The notes under the pieces: model-generated
Told to the model about the DNA's origin: nothing
Databases searched by the model: none
Seen by the model: the letters and a program-made list of their open reading frames with translations, nothing else
Source: Promethearchaeota archaeon
GTDB taxonomy: Archaea > Asgardarchaeota > Lokiarchaeia > Sigyniarchaeales > SOKP01
NCBI GenBank assembly: GCA_048938895.1
Contig: JBHLLU010000046.1
Location: forward strand, 1 to 32,348
DNA: 32,348 nt
Reading direction: 5' to 3'
Translations under genes and position numbers: made by a program
In this document: positions 1,873 to 25,500 of the stretch, piece by piece
Layout of the letters: each line of letters starts with the position of its first letter
How positions within the stretch are numbered: position 1 is the stretch's first letter

Positions 1873-1876
1873 GAGA

Positions 1877-2245: not shown

Positions 2246-2261
2246 GGAGGATTGAGAAATA

Positions 2262-2603: not shown

Positions 2604-2716
2604 ATTAAATTAAAAAAATTAATTAATAGATTTTTATAAAAATCTGGATAAACCCAGAAAAAATAGATAATATAAACAACAAATAGTAAAAAAAAAAAAA
2701 AAAGAAGGTGTCATAT

Positions 2717-3139: not shown

Positions 3140-3182
3140 AATTAATTAAAACAATTTTTTTTTATTTTATATTTCAAAAAAG

Positions 3183-3746: not shown

Positions 3747-3749
3747 AAT

Positions 3750-4667: not shown

Positions 4668-4668
4668 A

Positions 4669-6696: not shown

Positions 6697-7145
6697 GTGA
6701 TTGTGAAGCAATTGATGAAGGAATTCAAGAAAAAATACAAAATGTAGTAATTTTTATGTGTAATGAGTGTGGTCAAGGATCGGCAAATACTGCTGGAGTT
6801 GCTCGAATGGGTTATGATCCAGCTATAAGAATCGTTAGAGTTCAATGCACAGGACAAGTTGGTCCTATACAAATTATGGATGCCTTAAACAATGGTGCTG
6901 ATGCAGTTGCATGTGTAGGATGCTGCTTAGGAGCGTGTCATTTTTTCAATGGAAATATCTTATCAATGCATAGAATAAAATTGATGAAAAAGTTATTTAA
7001 AGAATTAGGCTATAGTGATCAATTTGTAAATCAATACACTTCTCGTGCTGCTGAGGGTGAAACAGCAGTTGGAGATTTTGAAGATATTGTGGAACGATTA
7101 TCAACAGCAATAAATGAAGAGGGGACTATAAAAGATGGATGTTAA
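6693..7145 (+). CDS. mvhD: MvhD/FlpD [2Fe-2S] adaptor subunit
   Basis: FMCNEC...RIVRVQCTG...GADAV..VGC..GACHF.NGN. ATG overlaps the hdrA stop (ATGA). Confidence 0.9.
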   Translation: MSDCEAIDEGIQEKIQNVVIFMCNECGQGSANTAGVARMGYDPAIRIVRVQCTGQVGPIQIMDALNNGADAVACVGCCLGACHFFNGNILSMHRIKLMKKLFKELGYSDQFVNQYTSRAAEGETAVGDFEDIVERLSTAINEEGTIKDGC

Positions 7146-8370: not shown

Positions 8371-8372
8371 AT

Positions 8373-10838
8373 ATGAGTTTTGAATTATTAAGGAAAGAGG
8401 TAATTGATGCGGGATTATGTCAAGGATGTGGATTATGTGCTGGTTCATGTAAACATATAGAAATGGATATTTTACGTCCGACATTAAAAGATTATTGTAT
8501 CCTTGAAAGAAATGGTCAGGACTGTGGTAAATGTTATCAAAGCTGTCCACAAGTAATTCAGAAGAGATTCGAACAAAGACAACCTAAAGCTGTATATTCA
8601 TTACGAAGTAAAGACTCCACAATATTAAAGAAAGCAGCAAGCGGAGGAGTAGTAACCACCCTAGCAAAAAATCTTCTAGAAAATGAGGAACTTGCCGAAA
8701 TTGTAATGGTTCAAGATGTTGATGATAAACCTCAAGCAGAGATTGTAACTGATCCCGATGAAGCAGTAGAGAAAGCTGGTGTTGTCTATGGACGCTCAGG
8801 TGTTTTAGAAAAATTAGTTAACGTTGTTGGTAAGACCTTCGAACCTATAGGTATTGTAGGAGTACCTTGTGAAATGCGAGGTGCTGCCGATCTAGAGAAA
8901 GAAATGAATAGAGAAATCCTAAAAATTGGTTTATTCTGCAATTCTCATATGCGAACAGAACAGACTGATAAGGGATTAATTTGTTCTCCATGTTGTAATG
9001 GTTGCCCATCAGGAGTAAATGCCCAAGGCTATATCTCTTTAATTAGACAAGGACAATATCAGGACGCTGTTGATTTAATTCGTGAAAATAATCCACTTCC
9101 TTCTATATGTGGAAGAATTTGTACTAATGAATGCGAGCATGGATGTACTTTAATTGGAGATGATCATCCTGTAGCAATTCGCGAATTAAAGAAATTTGTA
9201 ACAGAATGGGAAATTGAGCAATCTATAGAATTAAAATCAAAGAGTAAACCCAAGAAAAATGCAAAGAAAGTAGCAATAATAGGTTCTGGACCAGCAGGAT
9301 TGACAGCAGGATATTTTCTGAGAAGAATGGGGTATGCTCCAACCATTTTCGAAAAGTCAGACCAAACAGGAGGAATGTTGAGGTTTGGAGTACCACAATT
9401 TAGATTGCCTAATTATGTTTTAGATTATGATATAAATCGGATCAAGAATTCTGGAGTCGAAATTGTTCTTAATAAACCATTAGGACCAGAAATGACTATT
9501 GATGACTTAAAGAATGAAGGATACGAAGCTATATTCATAGCTACTGGGCAATATAAACCAAGAACATTACATTTAGAAGGAGAAGATTTACCTAATGTAC
9601 ATGTAGCTATTACATTTCTTATGGATAGAAAGTATCGCTACTGGGAAAACAAAGAAGAATTTAAGGGAAAAAGTATTGGAATAATTGGTGGAGGTCCTGT
9701 TGCCGTGGATGTTGCACAAACCGCTCTTAGATTAGGCGCTGAAAAAATTCATCTCGTCGATATCATGACTGAAGAACAACTTGAATTAACTCTAAAAGAA
9801 ATCCCTGAAAAAGAGCGAGAGTTTATGGAATATCACTTTACCACATCTACTTCGAAAATTACTAAAAAAGATGATGATAAGCTAGTGTTGAATTTTTATA
9901 AAATCAAATGGGGTGCTCCTGATGAGACTGGAAGAAGGTCTTTTGAAAAAATCAAGGATTCAGAATATGAAATTCCTATTGATTCGATTGTAATTGCTAT
10001 TGGCCAAGCTGTTGATTTTGACCAAATTGATATCGCTACGGATAATAAATTAGAAAAGGAACGTAATAAAATTAAAGTGAATGAAGTGACTTTCGAAACG
10101 AACATTCCAGGTGTATTTGCGGGAGGAGATATTGTAAACAACTCAAAAGCAGTAGCAATCGCAGCAATTGCGCATGGAAAAGAAGCAGCATTGTCTATTG
10201 ACAGGTACATAAAAGGTGAAAGTTTAATTGAAGGCAGATATAAGCAAGATAAAATGTTCTTTAGAGGTCCAAAAAAACCACCAAAAGATTACTCTCCAAA
10301 ACCAGAGACATTAAGCGAGGCAACTGAAGATATTGTTTGGAGTTTTGAAGAAGTTGAACAACAATTTAATGAGGAAATGGCTCTCCAAGAGGCACGTAGA
10401 TGCTTAAGTTGTAATCATTTCTGCTCCCATTGTCAAGATTTCCCTGCTATTTATTCTGATTTAACTGCAGGAGAAGTTGGATCTCAAGAAGGATTTACTA
10501 CTGTAGTAGTCTGGACTGATAGAGGGAAAGAAATTATTGATAATGGGATCCAGAATGGTCTATTTGAAGAAGGAGAAGTAAATAGTGAAGAATTAAATGA
10601 AGCAATCAATCTTAAATCGAAAAGAGAGCTCTTAACTTTCGAAAAAACACCTAGGCAGCAAGTATTGGATTACATTACTCTTCAAGGACCGACTACGATT
10701 ACCAACATGGCTAAGAAATTAAATTTAGATCCTAAAAAAGTACGATATGAAGCCCTTCGGTTAGCACAAATGATGATGGTTGAGATGAAAGTTGACACTG
10801 GAATGCAAGAACCAATTTTTACTTTAATATGTGATTAA
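8373..10838 (+). CDS. FrhB/FdhB-like protein with inserted GltD/NfnB-like FAD oxidoreductase and C-terminal winged helix
   Basis: Ferredoxin and FrhB motifs (SGGVVT, VGVPC, IGLFC), then SPCCNGCP...CGRIC...CE...IGSGPAG...GVFAGGD...EARRCLSC, then the FrhB C-part (CSHCQDF..SDLTAGEVGS..GFTTVVVWTDRG), then a wHTH-like tail. Confidence 0.85.
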   Translation: MSFELLRKEVIDAGLCQGCGLCAGSCKHIEMDILRPTLKDYCILERNGQDCGKCYQSCPQVIQKRFEQRQPKAVYSLRSKDSTILKKAASGGVVTTLAKNLLENEELAEIVMVQDVDDKPQAEIVTDPDEAVEKAGVVYGRSGVLEKLVNVVGKTFEPIGIVGVPCEMRGAADLEKEMNREILKIGLFCNSHMRTEQTDKGLICSPCCNGCPSGVNAQGYISLIRQGQYQDAVDLIRENNPLPSICGRICTNECEHGCTLIGDDHPVAIRELKKFVTEWEIEQSIELKSKSKPKKNAKKVAIIGSGPAGLTAGYFLRRMGYAPTIFEKSDQTGGMLRFGVPQFRLPNYVLDYDINRIKNSGVEIVLNKPLGPEMTIDDLKNEGYEAIFIATGQYKPRTLHLEGEDLPNVHVAITFLMDRKYRYWENKEEFKGKSIGIIGGGPVAVDVAQTALRLGAEKIHLVDIMTEEQLELTLKEIPEKEREFMEYHFTTSTSKITKKDDDKLVLNFYKIKWGAPDETGRRSFEKIKDSEYEIPIDSIVIAIGQAVDFDQIDIATDNKLEKERNKIKVNEVTFETNIPGVFAGGDIVNNSKAVAIAAIAHGKEAALSIDRYIKGESLIEGRYKQDKMFFRGPKKPPKDYSPKPETLSEATEDIVWSFEEVEQQFNEEMALQEARRCLSCNHFCSHCQDFPAIYSDLTAGEVGSQEGFTTVVVWTDRGKEIIDNGIQNGLFEEGEVNSEELNEAINLKSKRELLTFEKTPRQQVLDYITLQGPTTITNMAKKLNLDPKKVRYEALRLAQMMMVEMKVDTGMQEPIFTLICD

Positions 10839-11431: not shown

Positions 11432-13351
11432 TCAAGCGAAGTGCTTTTCAATTAATGTTCCAAGACTCTCCCAATTTTCCGATACTGAACAAGATTCTTC
11501 TAGATTTTCAATCAGAATTTGGTAATGGTTATCAAATTCTTCAATGAGAGTCAAAAGTTTTTGATGAAAAATTGTCAAGTTTTCTTTTACAATTAAAGCA
11601 AATATAATTTGGTTTGTTGTGTTAAAATCGAAGATTATTTTCCTATCTCCATGATCTATTATCTTGATTAATCTTTCAGCTTGGATTACCTCTTTTAAAA
11701 TAGTCATCATTCCAACCAAACCACCTGAGATTAGAAGAGAATCATTTTTTTTCTCGATTTCCATAAATGGATAATCATAAAGCAGAACTCCTGAATTACA
11801 AAAGATGTAAATTTGTAGTAGGAAGTCTGTCCAGTTAATTATTGGTAATCTTAATATGAATTTTGAACCCTCATTTCTTCCTTCGGATTCAACAAGAATT
11901 TGACCTCCATGTAAATCGATAATTTCTTTTGAAAAATATAATCCCAAATAGAAATTTTTTAGATTTGATTTAGTTCTTGATGCAAAAAGTGTTTTTTTCT
12001 CTTTTTCATTTAAATTCACACTTTCATTTTTTAGTATAATTTCAGCAAAATCGTTATTTTGCTGTAAATATATGGAAATCTCACTTTTTTTTGAAGCATT
12101 ATTAATAATATGAAGCAGAATATCCTTAATCACCTGTTTTATTCTATGCTTATCAATTTCAGCATACAAATCTTCAGCCAAATCTAAATTCATTGTAAAA
12201 TTTAGCTTTTTTATTTTTATCATTGTCTCATCTACAGATTCAGTAATGGTTTTAACAAGACTCTCAATTTGTCTTTTTAGCCTTATTTTCTCAGTTTCTA
12301 TTCTAGAAATATCAACTATCCGCCCAACTAAGTTCATAGATTTTTTTCCTCCTTTTTTTATCATTTCTAAAAGTTTTATAGCGTTTTGGTCTAATTTGTC
12401 TTTATATGAATCTAAAAGTGTCTGTGATGCATCAAACATATCATTTAATGGTGCTTTCATTTCTTCTGAAGTTTGAGCTGTTAATTTTTTTTTCATATCA
12501 TCAATTTTCCTTAACCGTTCGTTCTCCCCTCTAATGATATTGTCCACTAATTTCCTTTCAGTTATATCTTTCATCAAAACTTGAACATATTTTTCGTTTC
12601 TAAATTTTAAAGAAGAAAAGATAGCTTCTATAGTAGAACTATTAGCTTTATCATTTATAAATTCAAATTCTACAATTTCACTCAATTCAAAATTAATAAC
12701 ATTATAAATCAACTCATCACACGAATCTATGACTTCTTTAGATTTTGGGAAGAGATCAAAAAAATTCTCCCCTATAAAATCTTCTTTTGATCTTTTTAGA
12801 TATAATTCTGCAGCAGTATTACAATCAAAAATATTCTTATTCGCTTCAAGTAAAAATACCGAAAATTGAAGATTATCAACAAAATTTCTAAAAATTTCTT
12901 CTGAATCTTTAAAGGAGTGTTCAATTTTTTTTTTATCTGTAATATCGCAAATTATATCTATTAATGCAGGTTGTCCATTAAAAGAAAGAACAAAAGCATT
13001 ACTGAATTCAAAAATCTTTTCTTCTGTCGAATTAAGATTAGTATATAGAGCTTCAAATTTACTTATTGTATTATAATTTATTTTATTAAAACAACAAGAT
13101 TCACAAATAATATTTTTATTCATCATCACCTCAAAACAAAGATTTCCAATCTGATTAGTTCCAAATTCATCTTCAGCTTTCTTATTCATATACAATATTT
13201 TCATATCTTTGGAAATAATAACAATTAAATCATTACTATTTGATAAGATAAAATTCAACAGCGCTTCAGATTCTTTTATTGGATTCTCTGGATTCTTGAA
13301 TTTTATTATACTTCGGTTTATATGTTCGTTCAATATTCCATTCTCCACCAA
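11432..13351 (-). CDS. PAS-PAS histidine pseudokinase with C-terminal longin-like domain
   Basis: Two PAS/PAC domains ending in DIT. H-box reads TSEEMKAPL (no His). N, G1 and G2 boxes are degenerate, but HGGQILVESEG..GSKF is retained. C-terminus IYIFCNSGVLLY...DSLLISGGL...IDHGDRKIIF. Confidence 0.82.
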   Translation of the reverse strand: MVENGILNEHINRSIIKFKNPENPIKESEALLNFILSNSNDLIVIISKDMKILYMNKKAEDEFGTNQIGNLCFEVMMNKNIICESCCFNKINYNTISKFEALYTNLNSTEEKIFEFSNAFVLSFNGQPALIDIICDITDKKKIEHSFKDSEEIFRNFVDNLQFSVFLLEANKNIFDCNTAAELYLKRSKEDFIGENFFDLFPKSKEVIDSCDELIYNVINFELSEIVEFEFINDKANSSTIEAIFSSLKFRNEKYVQVLMKDITERKLVDNIIRGENERLRKIDDMKKKLTAQTSEEMKAPLNDMFDASQTLLDSYKDKLDQNAIKLLEMIKKGGKKSMNLVGRIVDISRIETEKIRLKRQIESLVKTITESVDETMIKIKKLNFTMNLDLAEDLYAEIDKHRIKQVIKDILLHIINNASKKSEISIYLQQNNDFAEIILKNESVNLNEKEKKTLFASRTKSNLKNFYLGLYFSKEIIDLHGGQILVESEGRNEGSKFILRLPIINWTDFLLQIYIFCNSGVLLYDYPFMEIEKKNDSLLISGGLVGMMTILKEVIQAERLIKIIDHGDRKIIFDFNTTNQIIFALIVKENLTIFHQKLLTLIEEFDNHYQILIENLEESCSVSENWESLGTLIEKHFA

Positions 13352-13356
13352 GATTA

Positions 13357-14910
13357 TTATGTAATATTTAAATTTAATTCATTCATCCATTCATTAATAG
13401 TTGGGGGCTCAACGAGCTCAAAAAAAATTATAAATTTACTTCCTTTAGTATAGTCACCTTCAATTTTATTTTGTACGCAAATATAACCTTTGTATTTATC
13501 CACAATTTTCTTTACTAATGATAGTCCTAATCCCATTCCATATCCGTTTTTTTCTGTTTTTTCAGTTCTTTGAAAAATATTTTTTTTAATTTCGGGTGGT
13601 ATACCTCTTGCGTTGTCTATTAATTCAACTTTAAGATATTCATTCCCATGCTTTCGTACTTTTGAGAAATATATTGAAATCTCTATAATTGAGCAATCAT
13701 TATGCAATACCGAGTTTATTAGGATATTATCAAAAATCTCTTGTAAGAAATCGTTGGCCCTGATGTATATAGGTTTTTCAAAATGAAAAACTTCGATTTT
13801 AATTCTTTTATTCTGAAATCCATTAGTAATGTAGTCTATTGATCTTCTTAATACATCTCTGACATCCATCGTTGTCAAGTCTTGTCCAGTTCCTTCAATT
13901 TCAGAAATTCGCCTGACATTAAAAGTTAGCTTTGCTGCTCTTTTAACTTGTTCTTTAGCAATATTAACTATTTCTGAGATGTTACTCTTAAATTTAATCC
14001 CATTTAATTTATAAGCTATTAATTCAAGAGAAGAATTTATTATCTGAAGAATATTATTCATATCATGGGTAAACAAGTCTTTGAGAAAATTCGCTTGTTT
14101 GTAGGCTTTCTGATATTTCTTTTCTGATTTTATTAAACTGTTTTCTGTTTTTTTTCTATATGTTATATCTCTTATTATCTCAATTACCGCGGGTTCACCC
14201 TTGAAATTTAATATTGGAGAGCATTTATATTCCAAATATTTTTTTTCTTTTGTCTGAGAATTTATGAAATGTTTTTCACAGGTAATATTATTATTATAAT
14301 TTTTCATTAATTTGTTAAAAGAACAATATTCACAGGTGTCATCTCTATTCATTAAAACTTTATAGCACAACTCTCCTATATGGAAATTTCCAAAAATCTT
14401 TTTTGCTTTTTGGTTCATGTATAAGATTCTTAAGTTTTTCGAAATAACAATTACAGATTCATCAATATTTGATAATATTAGATTTAACTGTTCTTCCGAT
14501 TGTCTAATTTCGATTTTGTGTTTTTCTTGTTCAGTGATATCTCTTCCAACTTTTACAATTTGCTCAACTATTCCTTTATTTGTTTTGACTGGATATGCTA
14601 TCAACTCTAAAAATATATCTTTTCCATCTTTGTAATGAGTGTGTATGGATTTGCTTAAATTTCCTGTTTTTATAACATCTATTAAAGGACATTTACATTC
14701 TGGAGGTTTACAAATATGATTTAAACCATGTGTGAATTTATAACATTTCTTCCCAATAGCATCGTCTTTAGAAGTTTTGTATTTCTCACAGAATGACTTG
14801 TTTACATCAAGTATATTGTAACTCGTATCCAAAATAGTTATTTCCTCATAAATTGAATCAATTATTAATCGTAGATCTTCAATTTTGTAATTATTTTCTA
14901 TTTCACTCAT
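13357..14910 (-). CDS. Cytoplasmic PAS-PAS sensor histidine kinase
   Basis: Two Cys-rich PAS domains, H-box FTHDMNN, N-box FDNILIN, G1 IDNARGI, G2 GMGLGL. Confidence 0.92.
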   Translation of the reverse strand: MSEIENNYKIEDLRLIIDSIYEEITILDTSYNILDVNKSFCEKYKTSKDDAIGKKCYKFTHGLNHICKPPECKCPLIDVIKTGNLSKSIHTHYKDGKDIFLELIAYPVKTNKGIVEQIVKVGRDITEQEKHKIEIRQSEEQLNLILSNIDESVIVISKNLRILYMNQKAKKIFGNFHIGELCYKVLMNRDDTCEYCSFNKLMKNYNNNITCEKHFINSQTKEKKYLEYKCSPILNFKGEPAVIEIIRDITYRKKTENSLIKSEKKYQKAYKQANFLKDLFTHDMNNILQIINSSLELIAYKLNGIKFKSNISEIVNIAKEQVKRAAKLTFNVRRISEIEGTGQDLTTMDVRDVLRRSIDYITNGFQNKRIKIEVFHFEKPIYIRANDFLQEIFDNILINSVLHNDCSIIEISIYFSKVRKHGNEYLKVELIDNARGIPPEIKKNIFQRTEKTEKNGYGMGLGLSLVKKIVDKYKGYICVQNKIEGDYTKGSKFIIFFELVEPPTINEWMNELNLNIT

Positions 14911-15207: not shown

Positions 15208-16017
15208 TTATGATTCTGGTTTTATAAACTGTTTTAAATCAAGGAATTTTTTCTCATTAAATATCTCCTTCTCTTTTACATAATATCTACAAGTTTGCTT
15301 TTCTAATCCAGATACATAAATCTTTTTCTTATCACACCAATAAAGTCCCGTCGGATTTGGATTGAAGGCAAATTTACAATCTGAAGAAATAAATTCCTTT
15401 TTTTCTTCCCTCCAGTTAAAATAATCAAATAATCTTTTGCATAATTTTAAGGAGTTTTCATTATATGGGTAACACATTATACAGTGCGTTCCAACTTCGG
15501 TCTTTCTTAATTTTATAGGGATAAACCCTAAAGTACTAAAAAATTTTAGTTTTTGTTGCTCACATTTAGCTACTAATAAGAAAACTATGTAATCTTTACA
15601 TTTTTCAAGTTCATTTTTAATCATAAAATTAGCTAAATATGTACCTAATCTTCTTCTTCTATAATTCCATTTAATCTCAATGGTGTCCCAATAAAAAAGA
15701 TAAGTTCCTTGATATATTGATAAGAAAATTAAATTTAAACAACCAACTATTTTATTAAAGCCATTTAAAATATAATGAGATTTATTTAAATAACCATAAT
15801 GCCACTCGTATGTATCTTTGATATTATCAAAAATTTTTGATGATAACTCTTCCTTCCGGTAGATTTTATGATCATATTCTTTTAAATTTCCTATTTTTTC
15901 TAAAAAGAAAGCATCATTTCTTGTGATTCTGGAGATACCCGGGGTTTTATCATCATAAGGTTCTTCACAGTCCATTTTACTTTTAATTTTTTCAATATCA
16001 TTGCATATATTTTCCAT
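15208..16017 (-). CDS. GNAT family N-acetyltransferase with C-terminal three-Cys module
   Basis: Motif A-like IEIKWNYRRRRLGTYL and motif B-like KFFSTLGF; C-terminal DCKFA...WCDKK...TC. GAGGT SD. Confidence 0.78.
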   Translation of the reverse strand: MENICNDIEKIKSKMDCEEPYDDKTPGISRITRNDAFFLEKIGNLKEYDHKIYRKEELSSKIFDNIKDTYEWHYGYLNKSHYILNGFNKIVGCLNLIFLSIYQGTYLFYWDTIEIKWNYRRRRLGTYLANFMIKNELEKCKDYIVFLLVAKCEQQKLKFFSTLGFIPIKLRKTEVGTHCIMCYPYNENSLKLCKRLFDYFNWREEKKEFISSDCKFAFNPNPTGLYWCDKKKIYVSGLEKQTCRYYVKEKEIFNEKKFLDLKQFIKPES

Positions 16018-16093: not shown

Positions 16094-16543
16094 CTATGGT
16101 ATAGTGCTTATACTGCTTATATTTTCGTCTTGATCAGCTTCCATGAAATGTTTATATAATTTATGAATAGTCTGATTTAATTCAAATTGAATCACACCCA
16201 AATTTAAAAATAGTGGAAACATGAGTGCAAGCCTTATGTCTTCAGTCACATATTCAAGATGGATCACAAAAGCTTCGTTATCAAGCTGATCTCCTGCCTG
16301 AATAGAAATTTGTTTAATAAAATTTTCTTCTCTAATTATTTCAACACTATTTTCTGCTAAGGTAACAATACTAGCGCATATCGCTGCAATACTTTGGAAA
16401 AATTCATCATCTTCATTATTATTAGCTCCTTCTATTGTTATAATAAAGCCATCTTCTGTAAATAAAGTGGAACATACTATACCAGTTCTTTCTCTAAATG
16501 ATTTTAAAATATTTTGAATTTTACTTTCTCTTAGATTAGCCAT
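16094..16543 (-). CDS. Roadblock/LC7 (MglB-like) domain protein
   Basis: GIVCSTLFTEDGFII...IAAICASIVTLAE...NLGVIQFEL; overlaps the GTPase stop by 8 nt. Confidence 0.85.
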   Translation of the reverse strand: MANLRESKIQNILKSFRERTGIVCSTLFTEDGFIITIEGANNNEDDEFFQSIAAICASIVTLAENSVEIIREENFIKQISIQAGDQLDNEAFVIHLEYVTEDIRLALMFPLFLNLGVIQFELNQTIHKLYKHFMEADQDENISSISTIP

Positions 16544-17186
16544 TTTGAACTATTCCCTCCCTCTTGATTGTATTATTTTCGTTTGTCCCGTTTAAAATAA
16601 TTTTGCTTACATGAATAATCGCATCTTTTATTCCAATATTATGTTTAGCAGAAGTTGAGTATACTTGCTCTCCAATCATATTTGTAATCACTTCACATCC
16701 ACAATAATCATCTCTATCTGCTTTATTGGCAATTATCCTTATGGGGATATTTTGTCCTAAAACCGCACGAGTTTCTTCTAATATCACTAAACCGTTTCCT
16801 ATATTCACCAAATCACAACCATCAATTAGAAGAATTACTCCATCATTTCCTTTTGCTAGAATTTTTCGAACCGCAGAAAACTGCAATTGCCCAGGACACC
16901 CCTTTAGCTCTATATTTAACGCATGCCAACCCGAATATTCATCTTTATCTCTTAAATATTCAGTCTTATTCATAATCACACCTTCTGTTTTAAAATCCAA
17001 ATTAGGTCTAACCCAAACTAACCTCGCTAGGTCAAATCCTGTTGTAGTATGAGTTTTTTCATCATTATAGGCATAAGCTAATTTTTTCTCAACAGATATA
17101 GCTTTATCATCAAGAGTGTGAATCAATGTCGTTTTACCTGAATTAAAAAAACCTGTTATAAAAATTTTAATTTTATCCCTCTCCAA
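16536..17186 (-). CDS. Small GTPase, MglA/CvnD-like
   Basis: G1 GFFNSGKTT, G2 TTTGFD, G3 GCPGQ, G4 NKAD, G5 SAK. TTG start. Confidence 0.9.
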   Translation of the reverse strand: MERDKIKIFITGFFNSGKTTLIHTLDDKAISVEKKLAYAYNDEKTHTTTGFDLARLVWVRPNLDFKTEGVIMNKTEYLRDKDEYSGWHALNIELKGCPGQLQFSAVRKILAKGNDGVILLIDGCDLVNIGNGLVILEETRAVLGQNIPIRIIANKADRDDYCGCEVITNMIGEQVYSTSAKHNIGIKDAIIHVSKIILNGTNENNTIKREGIVQNG

Positions 17187-17592: not shown

Positions 17593-18063
17593 ATGCCAAA
17601 CTATAAACAATTGTTAGATATGTCAAACGCAACTCTAGTAGCGATGGGAGAGGCAATGATAAATATGGGATTAAATATTCCCTTAGTATGGAACGAAATA
17701 GCAAATGCATATGGAAATAGTGCCAAAAGCATGCTAAACGATCTTGGTTTGAATATTGAAGGCTCAGATGTGAAATCAATTACTGAAGATTTTACTAAGA
17801 AAATTAAAGAAACTGGTTTTTGCCAAAGGGCAATTATTATTGAAGCCACGGACGACAAAGTTGTAATTGATCTTGGAGAATGTATCTTTGGTTCTGCAAC
17901 AAAGAAATTTAGGGGTACTGATCTAAATTTCATACCTCCCTGTCCAATGATGGGAGTCCTATATAGTGCTATTGAAAAACACACAGGTAAAAAAGGGTTT
18001 ATTGAATCATGTTTATGGAAACCTGAGGAAAACACATCTGTATTTACTGTTTCTTTAGAATAA
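17593..18063 (+). CDS. V4R-like (MetOD1/Bet3-related fold) domain protein
   Basis: Helical N-half, then VVIDLGECIF...PPCPM..VL..AIE...SC...SVFTV, matching the Cys spacing of V4R-type domains by eye. Confidence 0.6.
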   Translation: MPNYKQLLDMSNATLVAMGEAMINMGLNIPLVWNEIANAYGNSAKSMLNDLGLNIEGSDVKSITEDFTKKIKETGFCQRAIIIEATDDKVVIDLGECIFGSATKKFRGTDLNFIPPCPMMGVLYSAIEKHTGKKGFIESCLWKPEENTSVFTVSLE

Positions 18064-18079
18064 GGAGGATTGAGAAGAA

Positions 18080-18205
18080 ATGGCAAAATCAGATTGTAAA
18101 TTTGCTGGAGATGAAAATTCGGACGGATTAGTATGGTGCGATAAAAAAAATATCTATGTTTCAGCGAAAGAAAAGGATACATGCCCTGATTATGATAAAA
18201 AATAA
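18080..18205 (+). CDS. 41-aa three-Cys microprotein MAKSDCKFAGDENSDGLVWCDKKNIYVSAKEKDTCPDYDKK (not in ORF track)
   Basis: ATG 18080 after AGGAGG and TAA at 18203-18205. Fits the intergenic gap. 23/35 ungapped identity to the GNAT C-terminal module (15280-15384). Confidence 0.88.
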   Translation: MAKSDCKFAGDENSDGLVWCDKKNIYVSAKEKDTCPDYDKK

Positions 18206-18227
18206 TACTAAAAAGAGGTAGACGAAA

Positions 18228-18593
18228 ATGAGTGCAAAAGAAGAAAAAATAAAGGACATCTTACTAGAACTAGAAAGGAATTCAGAAGTTTCCAATAGTG
18301 CTATAGTTTCATTAAAAGGCCAAATGATGGCAAGTGCTTTACATAAAGATGTTGATGAAAGAGCAGTCGCTGCGATGACTGCTGCTTTAACATCTGTAGG
18401 GAGTAGAGTTGCTGATACATTAAATTCAGGTAAAACTGGATCAATAGTTATAAGTGGTACAGATAAATTAATAGTATTACAACAATTAACCCAAGCCGTT
18501 CTAATAGCCTTAGCTCCTGCTGATGCTAAAATTGGGTTAATTGATTTCGAAATAAATACAGCTCTAGACAAAATAAAAATGGTTCTAGGATAA
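18228..18593 (+). CDS. Roadblock/LC7 (MglB-like) protein
   Basis: SAIVSLKGQMMASAL..DVDERAVAAMTAAL...IVISG...AKIGLI; canonical roadblock pattern. Confidence 0.93.
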   Translation: MSAKEEKIKDILLELERNSEVSNSAIVSLKGQMMASALHKDVDERAVAAMTAALTSVGSRVADTLNSGKTGSIVISGTDKLIVLQQLTQAVLIALAPADAKIGLIDFEINTALDKIKMVLG

Positions 18594-18697: not shown

Positions 18698-19147
18698 TTG
18701 TCAGAAATAACTGATAATTTAATAAGTTTATTAGATGATTTTATTACATCCACAGGGACCAATAGTTCTTGTTTAATAACTGAAGATGGGCTAGTTATTG
18801 CAGTTAATAGTAAGCAAGATGAAAAAGAAGAGGAGATTAATTATAATTTTGCTGCAATATCAGCTAGTATTTTATCAATGGCAGAAAGAGGAATTGAAAT
18901 CATTAATACAAATAAAATCCTTGAACAAATTAAAATTGACGCAGGTTTAGATCAAAACCTTGATGCTGATTTTACAATTTTAATTACAAGGGTTTATTCT
19001 AATGTATTATTACAAATAATTTATCCAAAAAGAATAAACACAGGCTTAATTCATTTTGAAACAAATAAAATAATAAAGCAAATAAAAGAAATTATTCAAA
19101 GTGATACTTCCAGATCGCTTTTTACAAATTTAGGATCTTTGACATAA
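18698..19147 (+). CDS. Roadblock/LC7 domain protein (paralog of 16094-16543)
   Basis: SCLITEDGLVI...FAAISASILSMAE...NTGLIHFET. TTG start after AGGTGA. Confidence 0.87.
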   Translation: MSEITDNLISLLDDFITSTGTNSSCLITEDGLVIAVNSKQDEKEEEINYNFAAISASILSMAERGIEIINTNKILEQIKIDAGLDQNLDADFTILITRVYSNVLLQIIYPKRINTGLIHFETNKIIKQIKEIIQSDTSRSLFTNLGSLT

Positions 19148-19201: not shown

Positions 19202-20647
19202 ATGCCAAATAGTGAGGATGATACTATTAAAAAAGAAGATATAAATCATAATGTTTATCAAGATCAAGATGTAAACGTGGTGGATTTAAAACAAGCGGAG
19301 AAATTTGATAAAGGAGAAAATACGATTCCTAACCTTGAACATGTTTTTAATGATATATTTACAGATATTACAAATAGAGATAATTTTGACGAAGAATTTA
19401 TAGATAAAATGGAATCACATAATAACCATAATGGTATTGAACCTGAGCTAAAAAAGGAATTAGAAAATGAATCCATGGATTCCATTCAAGAAGATTACAA
19501 CGTTCATGAGCATAAATTTAAGTTAACAAGAGAATTGGAACTTTTTCATGAGAGTAGAATAAAAGAATTAGAAGAAAAAATTAAAGAATATAACAATAAA
19601 TATCAAAAATTAGAGGATAAGATTCAGGAATACCAGGAAAAAAACCAAGCTTTGATAATTAAGAGAGAGGAATTAGAAGAAGTTGTGAAAAGTTTTGAAG
19701 AAAAAAAAAATCTATTAGAGATAAGAAGAGAGGAATATAGAGAACGGAATCAACAATTAGAGAAAAATACAGCCGAATTCACTAATCGTAATATGAGATT
19801 ACAAGAAGCTAGAGAACAATTTATGGCTTTAAGTAAGCAAGTAGAAGAAAAAAAAATAGATTTAGAGAAAAGAGAAAAAAACATTGAAAAAAGGCAAAGA
19901 GCTTTTAACAAAGATAAATTTGAATTTGAAAAAAATAAAATAGAATTCGAAAAAATTAAATTAGAATATGAAATGGGAAAAGCAGATTTAGAAATCAAGT
20001 TACAAAAATCAGATATTAAAAATTATGAAAAAGAACCCAAAGATGATGAACATAAACAAATAATCGTAGAAAAAGAGAAAGAAATAAGGGGCAAAGCAGA
20101 AATTTTAAAAGACATATTGCACCAATTAATGAATGATGGGGGATTTAATTCCTGTTATTTAATTGATGGGAAAGGAATGTTGATTTCTGAATATTCTAGA
20201 ACTAAATTTGATACAGTAGCAATCGGGGCAATGTTTTCATTGATGAGCACAAATTTGTTAAGAACAGTAAACAGTTTAAACTTGTTAGAATTAAAATATT
20301 TTAAGTTTTCTTCTGCGAATGGGGAATTTATGCTTAAAAACATTAATATCATGAATTATGAGAGAAATTTTATACTTTTAGCATATTTTGATGAATCTGA
20401 CTCCTTTATACCTAAACTTGAACAAAAATTTGATAAAAAAAAGATGAAAAGAATTATAAGAAGTGTGAAGAAAGATTTTAATAAATTTGGAAATGGGAAT
20501 AAAATTTCTTGGATACTTGATAATTTGGTAGAAAAGGTTAATTTTCTAAGACAAAAAAGCAAAATGATGGAAAAAAATATTGAAGCCATAAGGTTAGATG
20601 CTTTAAACACTACTTCAAATCAAATAAAAGGATTATTTGAAAGTTGA
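19202..20647 (+). CDS. Acidic N-terminus, long coiled coil and C-terminal roadblock-like domain
   Basis: E/K-rich heptad-like region of about 170 aa, then GFNSCYLIDGKGMLISE...DTVAIGAMFS. Confidence 0.75.
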   Translation: MPNSEDDTIKKEDINHNVYQDQDVNVVDLKQAEKFDKGENTIPNLEHVFNDIFTDITNRDNFDEEFIDKMESHNNHNGIEPELKKELENESMDSIQEDYNVHEHKFKLTRELELFHESRIKELEEKIKEYNNKYQKLEDKIQEYQEKNQALIIKREELEEVVKSFEEKKNLLEIRREEYRERNQQLEKNTAEFTNRNMRLQEAREQFMALSKQVEEKKIDLEKREKNIEKRQRAFNKDKFEFEKNKIEFEKIKLEYEMGKADLEIKLQKSDIKNYEKEPKDDEHKQIIVEKEKEIRGKAEILKDILHQLMNDGGFNSCYLIDGKGMLISEYSRTKFDTVAIGAMFSLMSTNLLRTVNSLNLLELKYFKFSSANGEFMLKNINIMNYERNFILLAYFDESDSFIPKLEQKFDKKKMKRIIRSVKKDFNKFGNGNKISWILDNLVEKVNFLRQKSKMMEKNIEAIRLDALNTTSNQIKGLFES

Positions 20648-20807: not shown

Positions 20808-21563
20808 ATGATGGGATTTGAACAAGAGACTAAAAAAGAAGAGAAAAGTTCTAATCAAGATAAACAACGGATTGGGTTACTTGTTTCTGAAGAAACTAAA
20901 ACTAGATGGCAAGATTTTGCGAATACTCATAATGTTACGACTATTTCTAAGTTAATTAGAATGGCAGTTGACTTTTATATCGATTATATCTTAAAAACGC
21001 CATCAGAAAGGGATTTTGCCCAACTTTCTCATAATCTAAGGGAATCATTAACATCCATTAAAGGCTTTTCCCAGTTAATAATAGAAAAATTTTCTAACAA
21101 ATTAGATCCTGATATCCTACTGAGAATTAAGGAAATATATAGCCAAAGTCTCTTACTTGAGAATAATATAAATGAAATTCAAAATTATAAAGAATTTGAA
21201 AATATCAAATATGATATTTTAATTATTGAAGATGATGCACCAACTATTATGGTTTTGACGGACTTTTTTGAGCTTAAAGGATATGTTTGTAAGGGTGTTT
21301 TAAGTGGTATTAAGGGATTAGAAGTATTGAACAGGAGCACGCCAAAATTAATATTGTTAGATGTATTTTTAAATGATATTAGTGGATATGAAATTTGTTA
21401 TAAAATCAAATCAAATGAAAATCTTAAAGAAATTCCCGTTTTTTACATTACTGCAATACCAGAATCAGAAGTTGTTGAAAAAGTAAAAAAAACAGGAGCA
21501 GATGGATTTTTTCTAAAACCTTTTAATTTTTCTCAATTCGAAATCTTATTAGATTATTTATAA
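20808..21563 (+). CDS. Response regulator: RHH-like, HisKA dimerisation and REC domains, no ATPase domain
   Basis: RIGLLVSEETKTRW...ISKLIRMAV; SHNLRESLTSIKGF; IIEDD...LILLD...ITA...KPF. Confidence 0.88.
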   Translation: MMGFEQETKKEEKSSNQDKQRIGLLVSEETKTRWQDFANTHNVTTISKLIRMAVDFYIDYILKTPSERDFAQLSHNLRESLTSIKGFSQLIIEKFSNKLDPDILLRIKEIYSQSLLLENNINEIQNYKEFENIKYDILIIEDDAPTIMVLTDFFELKGYVCKGVLSGIKGLEVLNRSTPKLILLDVFLNDISGYEICYKIKSNENLKEIPVFYITAIPESEVVEKVKKTGADGFFLKPFNFSQFEILLDYL

Positions 21564-21815
21564 ACATCATAAGATATTATTATTTTTATTAAAGAGTGTC
21601 TTAAAACTCTAAAAAATTCTAAAATATATTCAAAATATTTGTTTTTAAATAGAAATTATCAAGTAAACAAGTAATTTAAAAAGCACTTCTCCCTATTTTG
21701 TAAAAGTTTTTTATTAAGGAAAAGAATATTATACATAAGAAAAATATTTGTGTATGTGTTGTAAATCACTACAAATGAAAAGAAATCAGATGAGGTTAAA
21801 AGGATAGGTATATTA

Positions 21816-22499
21816 GTGCCTGAAGATACTAAAAATAAATGGGAAAAATTCGTCGATGAAAATGAATTTACTACTATTTCAATGCTAATACGAAAAGCAG
21901 TTAATTTTTATATCGATTCTAAACCCAAAATCTCGCTTATTAATAACATTTCAAAGTTTACACATGATTTGAAAGAACCTCTTACTTCAATAAAAGGTTT
22001 TTCTCAATTAATACTTGAACACGAATCAGATAAGATAAACCCAAATATATTATTAAGAATTAAAGAAATTTATGCTCAAAGTGTATTTCTTGAAAATAAA
22101 ATTAATTTTATTATTAATGAGTTCAAACCTCAAAGCCAAACATATGATATTTTAATTATTGAAGACGATTCTTCAACAATCATGGTTTTAACTGATTTTT
22201 TTGATATTAAAGGATTTTCTTCATTCGGTGTCACAACAGGGAATAAGGGATTAGAAGAATTAAAAAGAATAACCCCTAAACTAATACTATTAGATATTAT
22301 TTTACCAGATATTAGTGGTTATGAAGTTTGTAAAAAGATTAAATTGGTTGATAGATTTAAACATATACCCATTTATTATATATCAGCAATCCCAGAATCG
22401 GAAGTTAGTGGAAAATTACAAGAAACTGGAGCGGAGGGATTCTTACGTAAACCATTTAATTTTCCTGATTTTAAAATTCTAATGGAATATTTAAATTAA
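21816..22499 (+). CDS. Paralogous RHH-HisKA-REC response regulator (true start may be upstream)
   Basis: THDLKEPLTSIKGF; IIEDD...LILLD...ISA...KPF. Homology to the paralog continues upstream of the GTG. Confidence 0.87.
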   Translation: MPEDTKNKWEKFVDENEFTTISMLIRKAVNFYIDSKPKISLINNISKFTHDLKEPLTSIKGFSQLILEHESDKINPNILLRIKEIYAQSVFLENKINFIINEFKPQSQTYDILIIEDDSSTIMVLTDFFDIKGFSSFGVTTGNKGLEELKRITPKLILLDIILPDISGYEVCKKIKLVDRFKHIPIYYISAIPESEVSGKLQETGAEGFLRKPFNFPDFKILMEYLN

Positions 22500-22502: not shown

Positions 22503-25500
22503 TTAAACTATAGGAAGTGAAAAATAAAAAGAAGAACCTTTATCCCTCCCTTCAGATTCGACCCAAATCTCTCCTCCATGCATTTCTATAATTTTTTTTG
22601 AAATATATAAGCCTAATCCCGAACCTTCAGAAATTACATCATATCCCTGACCATAACGTTCAATCTTTCCGAATTGTTTAAATATTAGGCTTCTTTCTTC
22701 TTCTGAAAAACCAATCCCGTTATCTTTTATTGAAATTATAATAAAACCATTATTAATTTCTGAGTTGATTTCTATTTTTCCATTGGAGGGTGTGAATTTT
22801 ATGGCATTACTTAAAATATTATTAATAACATTGTGTATTTGGTCTTTTTCAACAGAACATATTAAATTATCTGATAACTTGAGATTCAATGTATGATTTC
22901 TCAACTTTAAAAATCCTTCTAATTCATTCACACATATTTTTATTAAGAGAGATAAATCCTCCTTAGTTTTTTTTAACTCGACCATTCCAGATTCCAATTC
23001 TGCTGTTTTTAAAATGTCGTTAACGAGAGATTCAAGCCGCTTACATCCAATTCTAATTTGATTCACTTTTTTTACTGTATAATCATCAAGTTTGTCATTA
23101 TGCATTTCTAATAAAAGATCAGAAAATCCTTTAATAGAGACCAAAGGTGTTTTTAATTCGTGAGAAGTCCTTCTTAACAACTCGGATTTGAGATTATTTA
23201 ATTTAATTAATTCTAGCTCGGCTTTTTTACTTTTAGTTATATCTCTTAGTGATATTTGTATTATTTTTTCCCCTTGAAGTTCTATTAGATCAAAACTAAT
23301 TGCACCAAAAAATTCTACATTATCTTTTCTTCTTAATTTGACCTCATAATCGTGTAATTTCCCAAATGATCTCATTAATTTCACAATCTTTGAACGTTGA
23401 CTTGGATCAGAAAAAATGGAAGATACCCCAACTTTATTTAAATCTTCAACAGAAAAACCAGTTAATTTTACCATCGCATCATTGCTATCTAATACTTTAC
23501 CTTCAATCGTAGTAAGACCTATCCCCACAGGTGAATTATCAAAGAGTAAGCGATATTTTTCTTCAGATTCTCTTAACTTTTCTTCAGTTTCTTTTAATTC
23601 CGTAATATCAATGGCAATAGCTCCTACTGAACTTACATCTCCTTTATCAGCATATAAAGGAAATTTAACAGTATGAAATTTATGTTTTTCACTTTTAGCT
23701 ATTACAATTTCTTCAAATATTTCAACTTTATTTGTGTCTAAAACTATCTTATCATTATCGAGTAATTTTTGTGCTACTTTTGGATGATTTGGATGAATAA
23801 AATTATCAGTTTTTCCCAATATTTCTTTTCTATCTAATCCAAATAGATCTTCATAATACTTATTTACAAGTTGATAAATCCCATTTGAATTTTTTACAAA
23901 AACAAGAGCTTGAGCATTTTCTATGAAGGAATTTAAGAAATCATTAATTTTTTTTTTCTCTTGCTCAACAACTCTTCGTCCTGTAATATCAATATTCGTA
24001 ATAAAATCTGCAGGTTTTCCGTTAAAATTAATTGTTTTTGAATAGTTTTCTACCCAGAATTTTTCCCCAGTCTTTTTAATACATCTTACCTCATAATTTA
24101 TAATGACTTCTTTTTGTCCTAATTGCTTCTTAGTTGCTTGTTCCTTGACAATTTTTATAAACTCAGGATCAATAAGTCTTAAAAACCCATACGGTTCTAA
24201 ATTCAATAATTCTTCAACGGTGTATCCATACATCTCAGCCAAACGTTTTGAAGCATATTTTATAACATTATCTTGAATGATCCCTATACCCATTAGAGAT
24301 TGTTCTGTGAAGTTTCTGAATTTTTCTTCAGATTCTTTTAATTCTCGCTCTGCTTTTTTTCTTTCCGTGATATCTTGACCAATATTATACATAAAAAATT
24401 CATTATCTAGTTTAATTAATGATGCTTGTGAATTTATCCAACATTTTTTTCCATCCTTTCTATTAGGTATAAATTGTAGGGGTGGTAGCATTTCTCCTTT
24501 AAATAGTAATTCCATTTTATTTTCTAGTAATGGTAATAATTCAGGTGGATTCATTGGCATTTCTCTAAAATTTTTTCCTATGAATTCTTCTTTCGGGTAT
24601 CCAAAAATGTCTACAGCACTATTATTACAATCAATAAAATTTCCATCCTTATCAAATAGAATGATGTAATAAGGGCTATTTTCAAATAAATGTCGATATT
24701 TTTCTTCGGACTTTTTTAATTCATGTTGTACTAACTTGCGATCAGTAATGTTTAATGCATATTCTATCATCTGGACGACATTTCCATTCTCATCTAAAAT
24801 TGGATATCCGTAAATTTCATAAATTTTCTCATTTTCCTCTCTATCGTAATGTATATGTTCTACTATGCAACTTTTTTTGGTTTTTTTAACTTCATCAATT
24901 GGGCAAATACAAGGCGTTGTACAAGGTGTATCACGATTATGTGTTAGTTTATAACAATATTCTCCCTCTCTTAGACCCGTAGAAGAAGCAGTGGAATTAG
25001 CTAATATAACCTTATAATCCTTAACATTTATTACATAGAAAGGATGCGTAAGTGATTCTAAAATGTTGTTAAGAAATATATTCTGTTTTCGAAATTTTTC
25101 TTCGGACTTTTTTAATTCATGTTGTACTAACTTGCGATCAGTAATGTTTAATGCATATTCTATCATCTGGACGACATTTCCATTCTCATCTAAAATTGGA
25201 TATCCGTAAATTTCATAAATTTTCTCATTTTCCTCTCTATCGTAATGTATATGTTCTACTATGCAACTTTTTTTGGTTTTTTTAACTTCATCAATTGGGC
25301 AAATACAAGGCGTTGTACAAGGTGTATCACGATTATGTGTTAGTTTATAACAATATTCTCCCTCTCTTAGACCCGTAGAAGAAGCAGTGGAATTAGCTAA
25401 TATAACCTTATAATCCTTAACATTTATTACATAGAAAGGATGCGTAAGTGATTCTAAAATGTTGTTAAGAAATATATTCTGTTTTCGAAATTTTTCTTCT

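What the first reader, a model, noticed from the sequence alone, without database searches (positions are those of the whole stretch)
18080..18205. Hidden 41-aa microprotein that is a free-standing copy of the GNAT's C-terminal three-Cys module
Seen: an ORF below the track's length cutoff, with an AGGAGG SD, encodes SDCKFAGDENSDGLVWCDKKNIYVSAKEKDTCPDY. The GNAT on the opposite arm (15280-15384, minus strand) contains SDCKFAFNPNPTGLYWCDKKKIYVSGLEKQTCRYY. They align without gaps at 23/35 identity and share C-x13-C-x14-C spacing, with synonymous codon differences (e.g. TGC/TGT, GTT/GTA) suggesting selection on protein. I do not recognise the family. Inference: a small metal- or Fe-S-binding module used both free and fused. 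The free copy could pair with, compete with, or be acetylated by the GNAT (it has 8 Lys).
Basis: partly seen in the sequence, partly recalled or inferred. Interest (0 to 1): 0.88.

Follow-up and report, generated by a model that had tools for sequence, protein, structure and literature searches.

The report
Asgard mini Cys-protein in GTPase operon
A real, conserved 41-residue cysteine protein of Asgard archaea, predicted to fold like small iron-sulfur (HiPIP-type) subunits, always sits next to one partner gene in a small-GTPase/roadblock signalling operon, and a second copy is fused to an acetyltransferase nearby.

The parts
18080..18205 (+). Gene for the 41-aa Cys mini-protein. Three Cys at residues 6, 20 and 35.
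   Evidence: an ORF with conserved orthologues and purifying selection.
18064..18069 (+). GGAGGA Shine-Dalgarno-like site, 10 nt before the ATG and directly after the stop of the upstream gene.
   Evidence: GGAG/GGTG-like strings lie upstream of the start in most of the 23 orthologous loci printed (read by eye, not counted).
18089..18193 (+). 35-aa core of the free module (C-x13-C-x14-C).
   Evidence: Invariant residues D5 C6 N13 G16 W19 C20 K22 K23 Y26 V27 C35 in alignment A2.
15208..16017 (-). 269-aa GNAT (N-terminal-acetyltransferase-like) protein with the C-terminal Cys module.
   Evidence: GNAT by profile and by fold; alignment of 15 fusion proteins.
15280..15384 (-). Fused copy of the 35-aa module (residues 212-246 of the GNAT protein).
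17593..18063 (+). 156-aa V4R/TRAPP-superfamily-like candidate, the gene immediately upstream and the invariable neighbour.
18228..18593 (+). 121-aa Roadblock/LC7 protein, the gene immediately downstream.
   Evidence: Robl_LC7 39.8 bits against a cut-off of 23; conserved position.
16536..17186 (-). 216-aa small GTPase, divergently oriented here. In other lineages it follows the roadblock gene directly.
   Evidence: small_GTP E 3.9e-9, below cut-off.
16094..16543 (-). 149-aa roadblock/MglB-like protein overlapping the end of the GTPase gene.
   Evidence: Robl_LC7 E 0.003, below cut-off. (MglB model E 0.0019, far below cut-off).
18698..19147 (+). 149-aa roadblock-like protein.
   Evidence: Robl_LC7 E 0.0013, below cut-off; conserved.
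19202..20647 (+). 481-aa coiled-coil protein whose C-terminal part has short homologues that match Roadblock/LC7.
   Evidence: L066 homologue Robl_LC7 27.8 bits against a cut-off of 23.
11432..14910 (-). Two PAS histidine kinases (639 and 517 aa) flanking the cluster.
   Evidence: Homologues flank the operon in other loci.
20808..22499 (+). Two paralogous HisKA-receiver proteins downstream of the cluster.
   Evidence: Conserved in loci of the same genus.

Best explanation
The 41-aa ORF is a genuine gene for an Asgard-specific mini-protein. I read it as a minimal HiPIP-like metal-cluster module, most likely [4Fe-4S]-type and less likely Zn. I propose that it works as a small accessory subunit of the product of the gene in front of it (a V4R/TRAPP-like candidate ligand-binding protein). 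Through that partner it would belong to a roadblock/small-GTPase switch wired to PAS histidine kinases, adding a redox- or metal-dependent or structural input. In the window's family a duplicate of the module was fused to the C-terminus of an N-terminal-acetyltransferase-like GNAT encoded on the divergent arm. That fusion plausibly docks or regulates the enzyme at the same complex.

Shown: the gene is real, conserved and Asgard-restricted in the collections scanned. It is coupled tightly in position and in phyletic pattern to the V4R-like gene. The GNAT domain is a GNAT.

Predicted only: the HiPIP-like fold.

Inferred: metal binding, physical partners, and the signalling role.
For: **Coding and selection**
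- Among 40 distinct free copies, mean pS is 0.82 against pN 0.20.
- In the 27 diverse members of alignment A5, the only invariant residues are the three Cys.

**Family size and range**
- Only 31 clusters at 50% identity reach E<=1e-3 in 1.84 billion proteins: 22 small (39-77 aa), 8 GNAT fusions and one of 115 aa.
- 41 of 400 genomes of the phylum have a match.
- A motif scan of 185,579 species genomes gave 36 loci. By record title, 15 are Promethearchaeota-type, 10 Thorarchaeota, 4 Helarchaeota, 1 Hermodarchaeota and 6 'uncultured archaeon'.

**Coupling to the V4R-like gene**
- In 23 of 23 loci the mini-gene starts -4 to +52 nt after the stop of the V4R-like gene.
- 38 genomes carry both genes, out of 41 with a mini-protein match and 45 with a V4R-like match among 400.
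- The order V4R-like, mini-protein, roadblock, GTPase, roadblock-like recurs across families.

**Fold**
- The AF2 model has pLDDT 82.5.
- The top three Foldseek hits are of the same kind.

**Literature** (passages read in PMC13450708 and PMC12358834)
- The small subunits of glycyl radical enzymes are HiPIP-like [4Fe-4S] proteins with a CX2CXnCXnC motif.
- One HPAD-gamma cluster is held by three Cys plus one His.

**Fourth cysteine**
- 15 of 52 distinct free copies carry a fourth Cys at -3 (8 CxxC) or -2 (7 CxC).

**GNAT domain**
- The profile hits acetyltransferases in the PDB (E 5.8e-8; Naa50 about 6e-7).
- Foldseek's best hits are N-terminal acetyltransferases.
Against: - No sequence model links the family to HiPIP. 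Pfam HIPIP, HPIP_like and DUF1540 do not hit it, and profiles against PDB sequences find nothing relevant.
- Foldseek's best E-value is 0.36, with no hit at E<=0.001.
- The window's protein and 37 of 52 distinct free relatives have only three Cys, so the canonical four-Cys ligand set is incomplete.
- I could not read model coordinates, so I did not verify that the three Cys cluster in space.
- In the model of the fusion protein the module has low confidence (pLDDT 43-52).
- AF2 may lean towards a known Cys-rich fold for a short protein.
- Zn instead of Fe-S cannot be excluded.
- The operon is patchy, found in only 14 of 134 genomes of the window's own family apart from the window's own genome. 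It is therefore accessory.
Confidence: 0.5

Rival explanations
1. The module is a structural zinc-binding (or other mononuclear metal) mini-domain that only mediates protein-protein docking. It has no iron-sulfur cluster and no redox role.
For: Three or four Cys in about 40 residues suit Zn as well. Asgard V4R/TRAPPC3 proteins bind Zn through Cys (passages of PMC10933270). There is no sequence match to any Fe-S family.
Against: The Cys arrangement (one optional CxxC or CxC plus two isolated Cys, each near aromatic residues) is not the two-knuckle pattern of zinc ribbons or rubredoxins; that comparison is recalled, not tested. Nine of the 10 listed structural neighbours are [4Fe-4S] HiPIP-fold proteins and none is a zinc finger.
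Confidence: 0.27
2. The free mini-protein is chiefly a substrate or competitive regulator of the GNAT. It would be acetylated at its N-terminus or lysines, or would compete with the GNAT's own C-terminal module for one binding site.
For: Free and fused copies lie on one contig about 3-4.5 kb apart in at least 11 loci of the window's family. The GNAT resembles protein N-terminal acetyltransferases. The N-terminus MAKSDC is kept in 12 of 16 close orthologues.
Against: The free gene is much more widespread than the fusion. Fused forms were found only in genomes of family f1, whereas free copies occur in at least nine families, where no GNAT fusion was found with this query. The GNAT therefore cannot explain the ancestral function. 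No binding or acetylation data exist.
Confidence: 0.12
3. The three Cys are not a metal site. They would instead be a thiol/persulfide relay or a disulfide switch, or the peptide folds only on its partner.
For: The fourth ligand is missing in most members. The complex prediction and the fusion model gave no confident structure for it in context.
Against: Three invariant Cys at fixed spacing with conserved aromatic and Gly positions and a confident stand-alone fold fit a metal-held mini-domain better. Disulfides are unlikely in the cytoplasm of an anaerobe (general knowledge).
Confidence: 0.08
4. The ORF is a chance open frame, or the similarity to the GNAT tail is a recent DNA duplication without protein function.
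For: It is short (41 aa) and lies in an A+T-rich genome, where short ORFs abound.
Against: Orthologues span several Asgard lineages with saturated synonymous sites and a conserved protein. The two window copies share only 71/105 nt.
Confidence: 0.01

Closest known systems
HiPIP-like small [4Fe-4S] accessory subunits of glycyl radical enzymes (HPAD gamma, BSS beta/gamma, MASS beta/gamma)
   Different: No detectable sequence homology. The context is a GTPase/roadblock signalling operon in Asgard archaea, not a glycyl radical enzyme. Most members have only three Cys. Cluster binding is untested.
Classical HiPIPs (high-potential iron-sulfur proteins; PDB 1isu, 3h31, 1pih, 1hpi, 8z82_a)
   Different: Classical HiPIPs are 60-97-aa periplasmic electron carriers of bacteria. 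The Pfam HIPIP model does not match. This protein is about 40 aa, has no signal peptide visible in the sequence, and the first Cys is missing in the window's copy.
Asgard small GTPase / roadblock / TRAPPC3-V4R proteins described by Tran et al. 2024 (PMC10933270)
   Same: The same classes of neighbours: small GTPase, roadblock, and a V4R/TRAPP-like protein with Cys-bound metal.
   Different: In the passages I read, that paper states that MK-D1 GTPase genes are generally not in operons with roadblock, longin or TRAPPC3 genes, and it mentions no mini Cys-protein. Here a tight conserved operon exists, with the mini-protein as a fixed member.
MglA/MglB-type and actinobacterial 'conservon' modules (sensor kinase + roadblock + GTPase)
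   Same: A small GTPase with roadblock partners next to histidine kinases. The comparison with the conservon is recalled, not tested.
   Different: The MglB model scores far below its cut-off (18.3 against 200 bits). As far as I recall, those systems have no V4R-like gene and no Cys mini-protein.

Membership tests
HiPIP / HiPIP-like [4Fe-4S] small proteins | HiPIP fold | tested here: inconclusive
HiPIP / HiPIP-like [4Fe-4S] small proteins | Four Cys ligands in a CX2CXnCXnC motif | tested here: not met
   The window's protein has three Cys, with K at the position of the first one. Among 52 distinct free relatives, 8 have CxxC, 7 have CxC and 37 have three Cys. The motif definition comes from PMC12358834.
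HiPIP / HiPIP-like [4Fe-4S] small proteins | Match to Pfam HIPIP (PF01355) or HPIP_like (PF18524) | tested here: not met
   No Pfam family for 17 members at E<=10. A six-frame search of the own genome with both models gave no match.
HiPIP / HiPIP-like [4Fe-4S] small proteins | Binds a [4Fe-4S] cluster | not testable with these tools
   Needs anaerobic purification with EPR, UV-vis and ICP-MS.
DUF1540 (PF07561), considered from a recalled motif resemblance | Match to the Pfam model | tested here: not met
   No hit on any of 17 members. The only own-genome hit is elsewhere, on contig C72, at E 0.086.
Zinc ribbon / rubredoxin-like | Two CxxC knuckles | tested here: not met
   The sequence has at most one CxxC, plus two isolated Cys. 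The family definition is recalled.
GNAT acetyltransferase (the fused protein 15208-16017) | GNAT fold and acetyl-CoA-binding core | tested here: met
   Profile against the PDB: 3ld2 E 5.8e-8, Naa50 about 6e-7. Foldseek: 323 hits at E<=0.001, the best being NatD, Naa50 and archaeal Ard1. Pfam Acetyltransf_1 scores 20.5 bits in the window's copy against a cut-off of 20.7, but 25.3 and 24.0 bits in longer orthologues.
V4R / TRAPP superfamily (the upstream neighbour 17593-18063) | Match to V4R or related models, or the V4R fold | tested here: inconclusive
   Pfam V4R and ATC_hydrolase do not hit it. The profile against the PDB finds nothing relevant. hhalign against three own-genome V4R paralogues gives E 0.0092, probability 4%, 120 collinear columns. 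ESM-Atlas feature neighbours are RdxA_C, ATC_hydrolase and TRAPP clusters at 0.91-0.94.
Roadblock/LC7 (the downstream neighbour 18228-18593) | Match to Pfam Robl_LC7 above cut-off | tested here: met
   39.8 bits against a cut-off of 23, E 3.8e-10.

The most novel reading that the evidence does not exclude
A three-Cys HiPIP-like mini-protein carries an iron-sulfur cluster with an open or shared fourth coordination site. That site would be completed by its obligate partner: the V4R-like protein for the free copy, and the GNAT domain (invariant His178, nearly invariant Cys193) for the fused copy. The pair would form a redox, gas or small-molecule sensor that sets the state of an Asgard roadblock/small-GTPase switch, and in one family would couple it to N-terminal acetylation. 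This would be an archaeal sensor input to GTPase/roadblock machinery of the kind eukaryotes use in Ragulator- or TRAPP-type signalling.
Probability: 0.15. Interest if true: 0.85.

Novelty: new variant of a known kind. Interest (0 to 1): 0.6.

Why it matters
Asgard small GTPases, roadblock proteins and V4R/TRAPP-like proteins are studied as forerunners of eukaryotic trafficking and nutrient-signalling machinery. It is unclear which GTPase works with which regulator. In passages I read of PMC10933270, the authors say that genome layout rarely helps.

This locus is a counter-example. It is a tightly packed operon, conserved across Promethearchaeota-, Thor-, Hel- and Hermod-type genomes, and it names a concrete set of partners. 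It also contains a previously unnamed mini-protein family that may bring a metal cluster into the system.

If the cluster is real, it gives a testable sensory input for an Asgard GTPase switch. It would also extend the use of HiPIP-like mini-subunits beyond glycyl radical enzymes. The GNAT fusion offers a handle on a possible link between N-terminal acetylation and small-GTPase modules in archaea.

Tried and rejected
- **Sequence assignment to known families failed.** Pfam on the protein and on 17 family members found nothing. NCBIfam found nothing. PDB sequence profiles with A2 and A5 gave only a chance GH18 match at E about 1. Pfam HIPIP, HPIP_like and DUF1540 models run over the own genome did not hit it.
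- **The word-index search for longer (fused) homologues found none**. The fusions came instead from six-frame genome searches and the exhaustive HMM search.
- **Complex prediction on the V4R-like and mini-protein alignments gave no verdict**: score 0.07 against a mark of 0.32, and the controls were not run. This is neither for nor against binding.
- **The ESM Atlas gave only unnamed small clusters** for the mini-protein.
- **The look-up of sequencing runs listed no RNA holder**, so read laying was not used and nothing can be said on expression.
- **The AF2 model of the fusion protein did not place the Cys module with confidence**, so I could not check whether His178 or Cys193 approaches it.
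- **I could not read model coordinates,** so Cys-Cys distances were not measured.
- **The idea that the V4R-like Cys complement the missing fourth Cys stays an observation.** Only the two V4R-like proteins lacking C97 and C117 (L030, L033) give a hint, and both pair with CxxC mini-proteins.
- **Literature.** The search 'Asgard' + 'HiPIP' returned 0 papers. Searches for V4R + roadblock and for Asgard + roadblock + operon + small GTPase returned no paper that, in the passages I read, describes this operon or the mini-protein. Subscription papers are not covered and supplements were closed, so asCOG tables of the 2020 Asgard preprint (10.1101/2020.10.19.343400) may list the family without my seeing it.
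- **Bias in the selection figures.** The pS/pN figures come from copies picked by a protein regular expression that fixes 12 of 34 positions. This lowers pN somewhat.

Full report
**Observation**

The window holds an ATG-started ORF at 18080-18205(+) of 41 aa. GGAGGA lies at 18064-18069, immediately after the TAA stop of the upstream 156-aa gene.

Its 35-residue core (18089-18193) aligns without gaps to residues 212-246 (15280-15384, minus strand) of the 269-aa ORF 15208-16017(-). Identity is 23/35 aa and 71/105 nt. Nine of the 23 identical residues use different codons. BLASTP over 41 residues gives 24/41 and E 3e-14. A six-frame search of the 4.65-Mb assembly finds exactly these two copies.

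**Is it a gene?**

Ten small proteins of 39-64 aa with 73-93% identity exist in the 5.8-billion-protein collection. Two of them are named 'hypothetical protein' in NCBI records of Promethearchaeota and Thorarchaeota MAGs. The gene is thus not hidden in all annotations.

An exhaustive HMM search of 1.84 billion cluster representatives found only 31 clusters at E<=1e-3. Of these, 22 are small (39-77 aa), 8 are GNAT fusions (156-475 aa) and one is a 115-aa protein.

Among 40 distinct free copies taken from fetched loci, synonymous sites are near saturation (mean pS 0.82) while pN is 0.20. For 5 fused copies the values are pS 0.63 and pN 0.09. The copies were picked with a protein pattern, which lowers pN somewhat.

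In an alignment of 27 diverse members the only invariant residues are the three Cys. A Gly, a Trp before the second Cys and a Lys are nearly invariant. Spacing C-x13-C-x14-C holds in 59 of 62 distinct copies.

**Distribution**

With the family profile, 41 of 400 genomes of the phylum have a match at E<=1e-3. This includes 14 of 134 genomes in the window's family apart from the window's own genome, so the gene is accessory and patchy.

I scanned one genome for each of 185,579 bacterial and archaeal species with the peptide pattern of the core. The scan gave 44 stretches, of which 38 were confirmed, in 36 loci. By record title these are:

| Record title | Loci |
|---|---|
| Promethearchaeota / Promethearchaeia / Promethearchaeum | 15 |
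| Thorarchaeota | 10 |
| Helarchaeota | 4 |
| Hermodarchaeota | 1 |
| 'uncultured archaeon' | 6 |

No bacterial or non-Asgard title appeared.

**Context**

The mini-gene always follows the same 155-209-aa gene. In 23 of 23 loci examined its start lies -4 to +52 nt after that gene's stop. GGAG/GGTG-like strings lie upstream of the start in most of the printed loci (read by eye, not counted), and in 22 of the 23 the next gene starts within -25 to +22 nt of the mini-gene's stop. These 23 loci were found through the mini-protein, so I also ran the converse search. The neighbour's profile hits 45 of the same 400 genomes at E<=1e-8.

- 38 genomes carry both genes.
- The three 'mini-only' genomes are two with only the fused copy and one weak hit containing stop codons.
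- The seven 'neighbour-only' genomes are a partial hit, one E 3e-31 hit, and five weak hits (E about 1e-9) in about 350-aa frames.

In other families of the class and phylum the order is neighbour, mini-protein, 121-125-aa roadblock, 215-238-aa small GTPase, roadblock-like protein. Often a further short protein follows that matches Robl_LC7.

In the window's genus the GTPase and one roadblock-like gene lie on the divergent arm together with the GNAT fusion. PAS histidine kinases and HisKA-receiver proteins flank both arms.

In three divergent lineages the neighbour/mini-protein pair stands in other surroundings: next to an aquaporin and a receiver protein, next to a MIT-domain protein, or near a LAMTOR3-like roadblock. 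The two-gene pair is therefore the constant unit.

Thor-type loci carry a second mini-gene upstream of the neighbour.

**What is the module?**

No Pfam, NCBIfam or PDB sequence match exists. The Pfam models HIPIP, HPIP_like and DUF1540 do not hit it in a six-frame search of the genome.

AlphaFold2 with a 17-row alignment gives a compact model with mean pLDDT 82.5, three short strands and one helical turn.

Foldseek finds nothing at E<=0.001. Its top three hits are the small subunit of 4-hydroxyphenylacetate decarboxylase (2y8n_B: E 0.36, TM 0.67 over 41 columns) and two HiPIPs.

|---|---|---|
| 2y8n_B, residues 46-86 | HPAD small subunit (rmsd 1.8 A, 38 aligned, 24% identity) | 4.7 |
| 9o8u_F | Methylalkylsuccinate synthase subunit | 3.0 |
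| 4pkf_B, 9pzj_E | Benzylsuccinate synthase subunits | 2.8, 2.7 |
| Five classical HiPIPs | | 2.3-2.6 |

Passages of two papers (PMC13450708, PMC12358834) make three relevant points:
- These small subunits adopt HiPIP-like folds and bind [4Fe-4S] clusters through a CX2CXnCXnC motif.
- Some of them share no sequence similarity with each other.

In the present family, 8 of 52 distinct free copies have CxxC and 7 have CxC at the N-terminus. The other 37, including the window's, have three Cys. The three-Cys state leaves the fourth ligand open.

**The fusion**

The 269-aa protein is a GNAT.
- The family profile hits acetyltransferases in the PDB: 3ld2 at 5.8e-8, Naa50 at about 6e-7, and archaeal NATs at about 2e-5.
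- Its model has 323 Foldseek hits at E<=0.001, led by N-terminal acetyltransferases NatD, Naa50, NatC and archaeal Ard1.
- Pfam Acetyltransf_1 is just under its cut-off in the window's copy (20.5 against 20.7 bits) and above it in longer orthologues, which also carry N-terminal HEAT repeats.

Fused copies were found only in genomes of the window's family. There they lie on the same contig as a free copy, about 3-4.5 kb away, in at least 11 loci. The fusion is thus a derived, family-specific duplicate.

In 15 fusion proteins, His178 is invariant and Cys193 nearly invariant just upstream of the module. Whether they approach the module could not be tested, because the module is poorly placed in the model (pLDDT 43-52).

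**The neighbour**

The evidence is mixed:
- Pfam V4R and ATC_hydrolase models do not hit it.
- Its profile finds nothing relevant in the PDB.
- All 71 homologues found are unnamed or called 'hypothetical protein' and carry no precomputed Pfam domain.
- hhalign against three V4R paralogues of the same genome gives a collinear 120-column match at E 0.0092 but only 4% probability.
- ESM-Atlas feature neighbours include clusters with RdxA_C, ATC_hydrolase and TRAPP domains at scores of 0.91-0.94.
- A passage of PMC5847659 says HNOB, V4R and ATC-hydrolase domains are related and share conserved Cys.

I treat 'V4R/TRAPP-like' as a lead, not a finding. Two of its Cys (C97, C117) are nearly invariant and two other positions vary.

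**Mechanism**

Shown:
- A conserved, selected mini-protein.
- Obligate gene pairing with one partner.
- Frequent membership of a roadblock/GTPase operon next to PAS kinases.
- A GNAT fusion confined to one family.

Predicted: the HiPIP-like fold.

Inferred:
- The module binds a metal cluster, most likely [4Fe-4S].
- It acts as an accessory subunit of the V4R-like protein and, through it, of the roadblock/GTPase switch.
- The fused copy docks or regulates the acetyltransferase at the same site.

The complex prediction gave no verdict and counts for nothing either way. No RNA run was available.

**Comparison and novelty**

The module works like the HiPIP-type mini-subunits of glycyl radical enzymes. 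Membership of that family is not established. The fold test is inconclusive, the four-Cys motif is not met in the window's copy, the sequence models do not match, and cluster binding is untested.

In the passages I read, Tran et al. 2024 (PMC10933270) state that MK-D1 GTPase genes are generally not in operons with roadblock, longin or TRAPPC3 genes. The 2020 Asgard preprint describes a different conserved operon: a LAMTOR1-like protein, a Rab-like GTPase and a DENN protein. A search for 'Asgard' with 'HiPIP' returned no paper.

Within the open literature I could search, the operon and the mini-protein family are undescribed. Supplements were closed and might list the family in ortholog tables.

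I rate this a new variant of a known kind, with interest 0.6. The family is small and its function unproven, but it marks a defined and testable partner set for an Asgard GTPase module.

Noticed in passing
window 1411-10838 (+): A cluster of sulfur-relay and heterodisulfide-reductase-like genes. It holds DsrE/DsrE/DsrH/DsrE_2-like proteins, a 4Fe-4S dicluster protein, a CCG-domain (HdrB-like) protein, an FAD plus ferredoxin-domain (HdrA-like) protein, an MvhD/FlpD protein, an Oxidored_q6 protein, and an 821-aa fusion of FrhB-like and pyridine-nucleotide-disulfide-oxidoreductase domains.
   Followed up: partly
window 22503-28751 (-): A 2082-aa histidine kinase with at least ten PAS-type domain hits, followed by HisKA and HATPase_c domains. 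Shorter homologues flank the same operon in related genomes.
   Followed up: partly
window 20808-21563 and 21816-22499 (+): Two tandem paralogues, each a weak HisKA match plus a receiver domain. Related loci show a single 275-292-aa gene at this place.
   Followed up: no
L061, L062, L063 (Thor-type loci): A second mini-protein gene lies about 230-300 nt upstream of the V4R-like gene, so that gene is bracketed by two copies. L064 holds two copies about 330 nt apart with no V4R-like gene detected by BLAST.
   Followed up: partly
L030 9450-9935 and L033 1293-1766: These are the only two of 23 V4R-like proteins that lack both nearly invariant Cys (C97, C117). Both pair with four-Cys (CxxC) mini-proteins. 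Other CxxC mini-proteins pair with V4R-like proteins that keep these Cys. The sample is too small to interpret.
   Followed up: partly
window 15208-16017 (-), residues 178 and 193: In 15 GNAT fusion proteins His178 is invariant and Cys193 nearly invariant, upstream of the three-Cys module. They are candidate extra metal ligands. This was not testable because the module is poorly placed in the model.
   Followed up: partly
L023 9865-11352, L024 7942-9402, L074 1515-2780; protein P0019: Longer versions of the GNAT fusion carry an N-terminal HEAT-repeat region (HEAT_2 E 1.6e-25 in L023 and 1.2e-24 in L074). The window's copy lacks it.
   Followed up: yes
protein P0041 (115 aa): The first 23 residues match the N-terminal half of the mini-protein. 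The sequence then continues into an unrelated stretch with a CPYC motif. It may be a frameshift, a chimera or a real fusion.
   Followed up: no
window 19202-20647 (+): The 481-aa coiled-coil protein has a C-terminal region whose short stand-alone homologues (161-219 aa in other lineages) match Roadblock/LC7. The operon therefore encodes three to four roadblock-type proteins for one GTPase.
   Followed up: partly
window 17601-18182 (-) and 18161-18571 (-): Long antisense ORFs (193 and 136 aa) overlap the V4R-like, mini-protein and roadblock genes. A length-greedy gene caller picks them instead of the real genes, as my own first script did. This may explain why the small gene is missed in some annotations.
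   Followed up: partly
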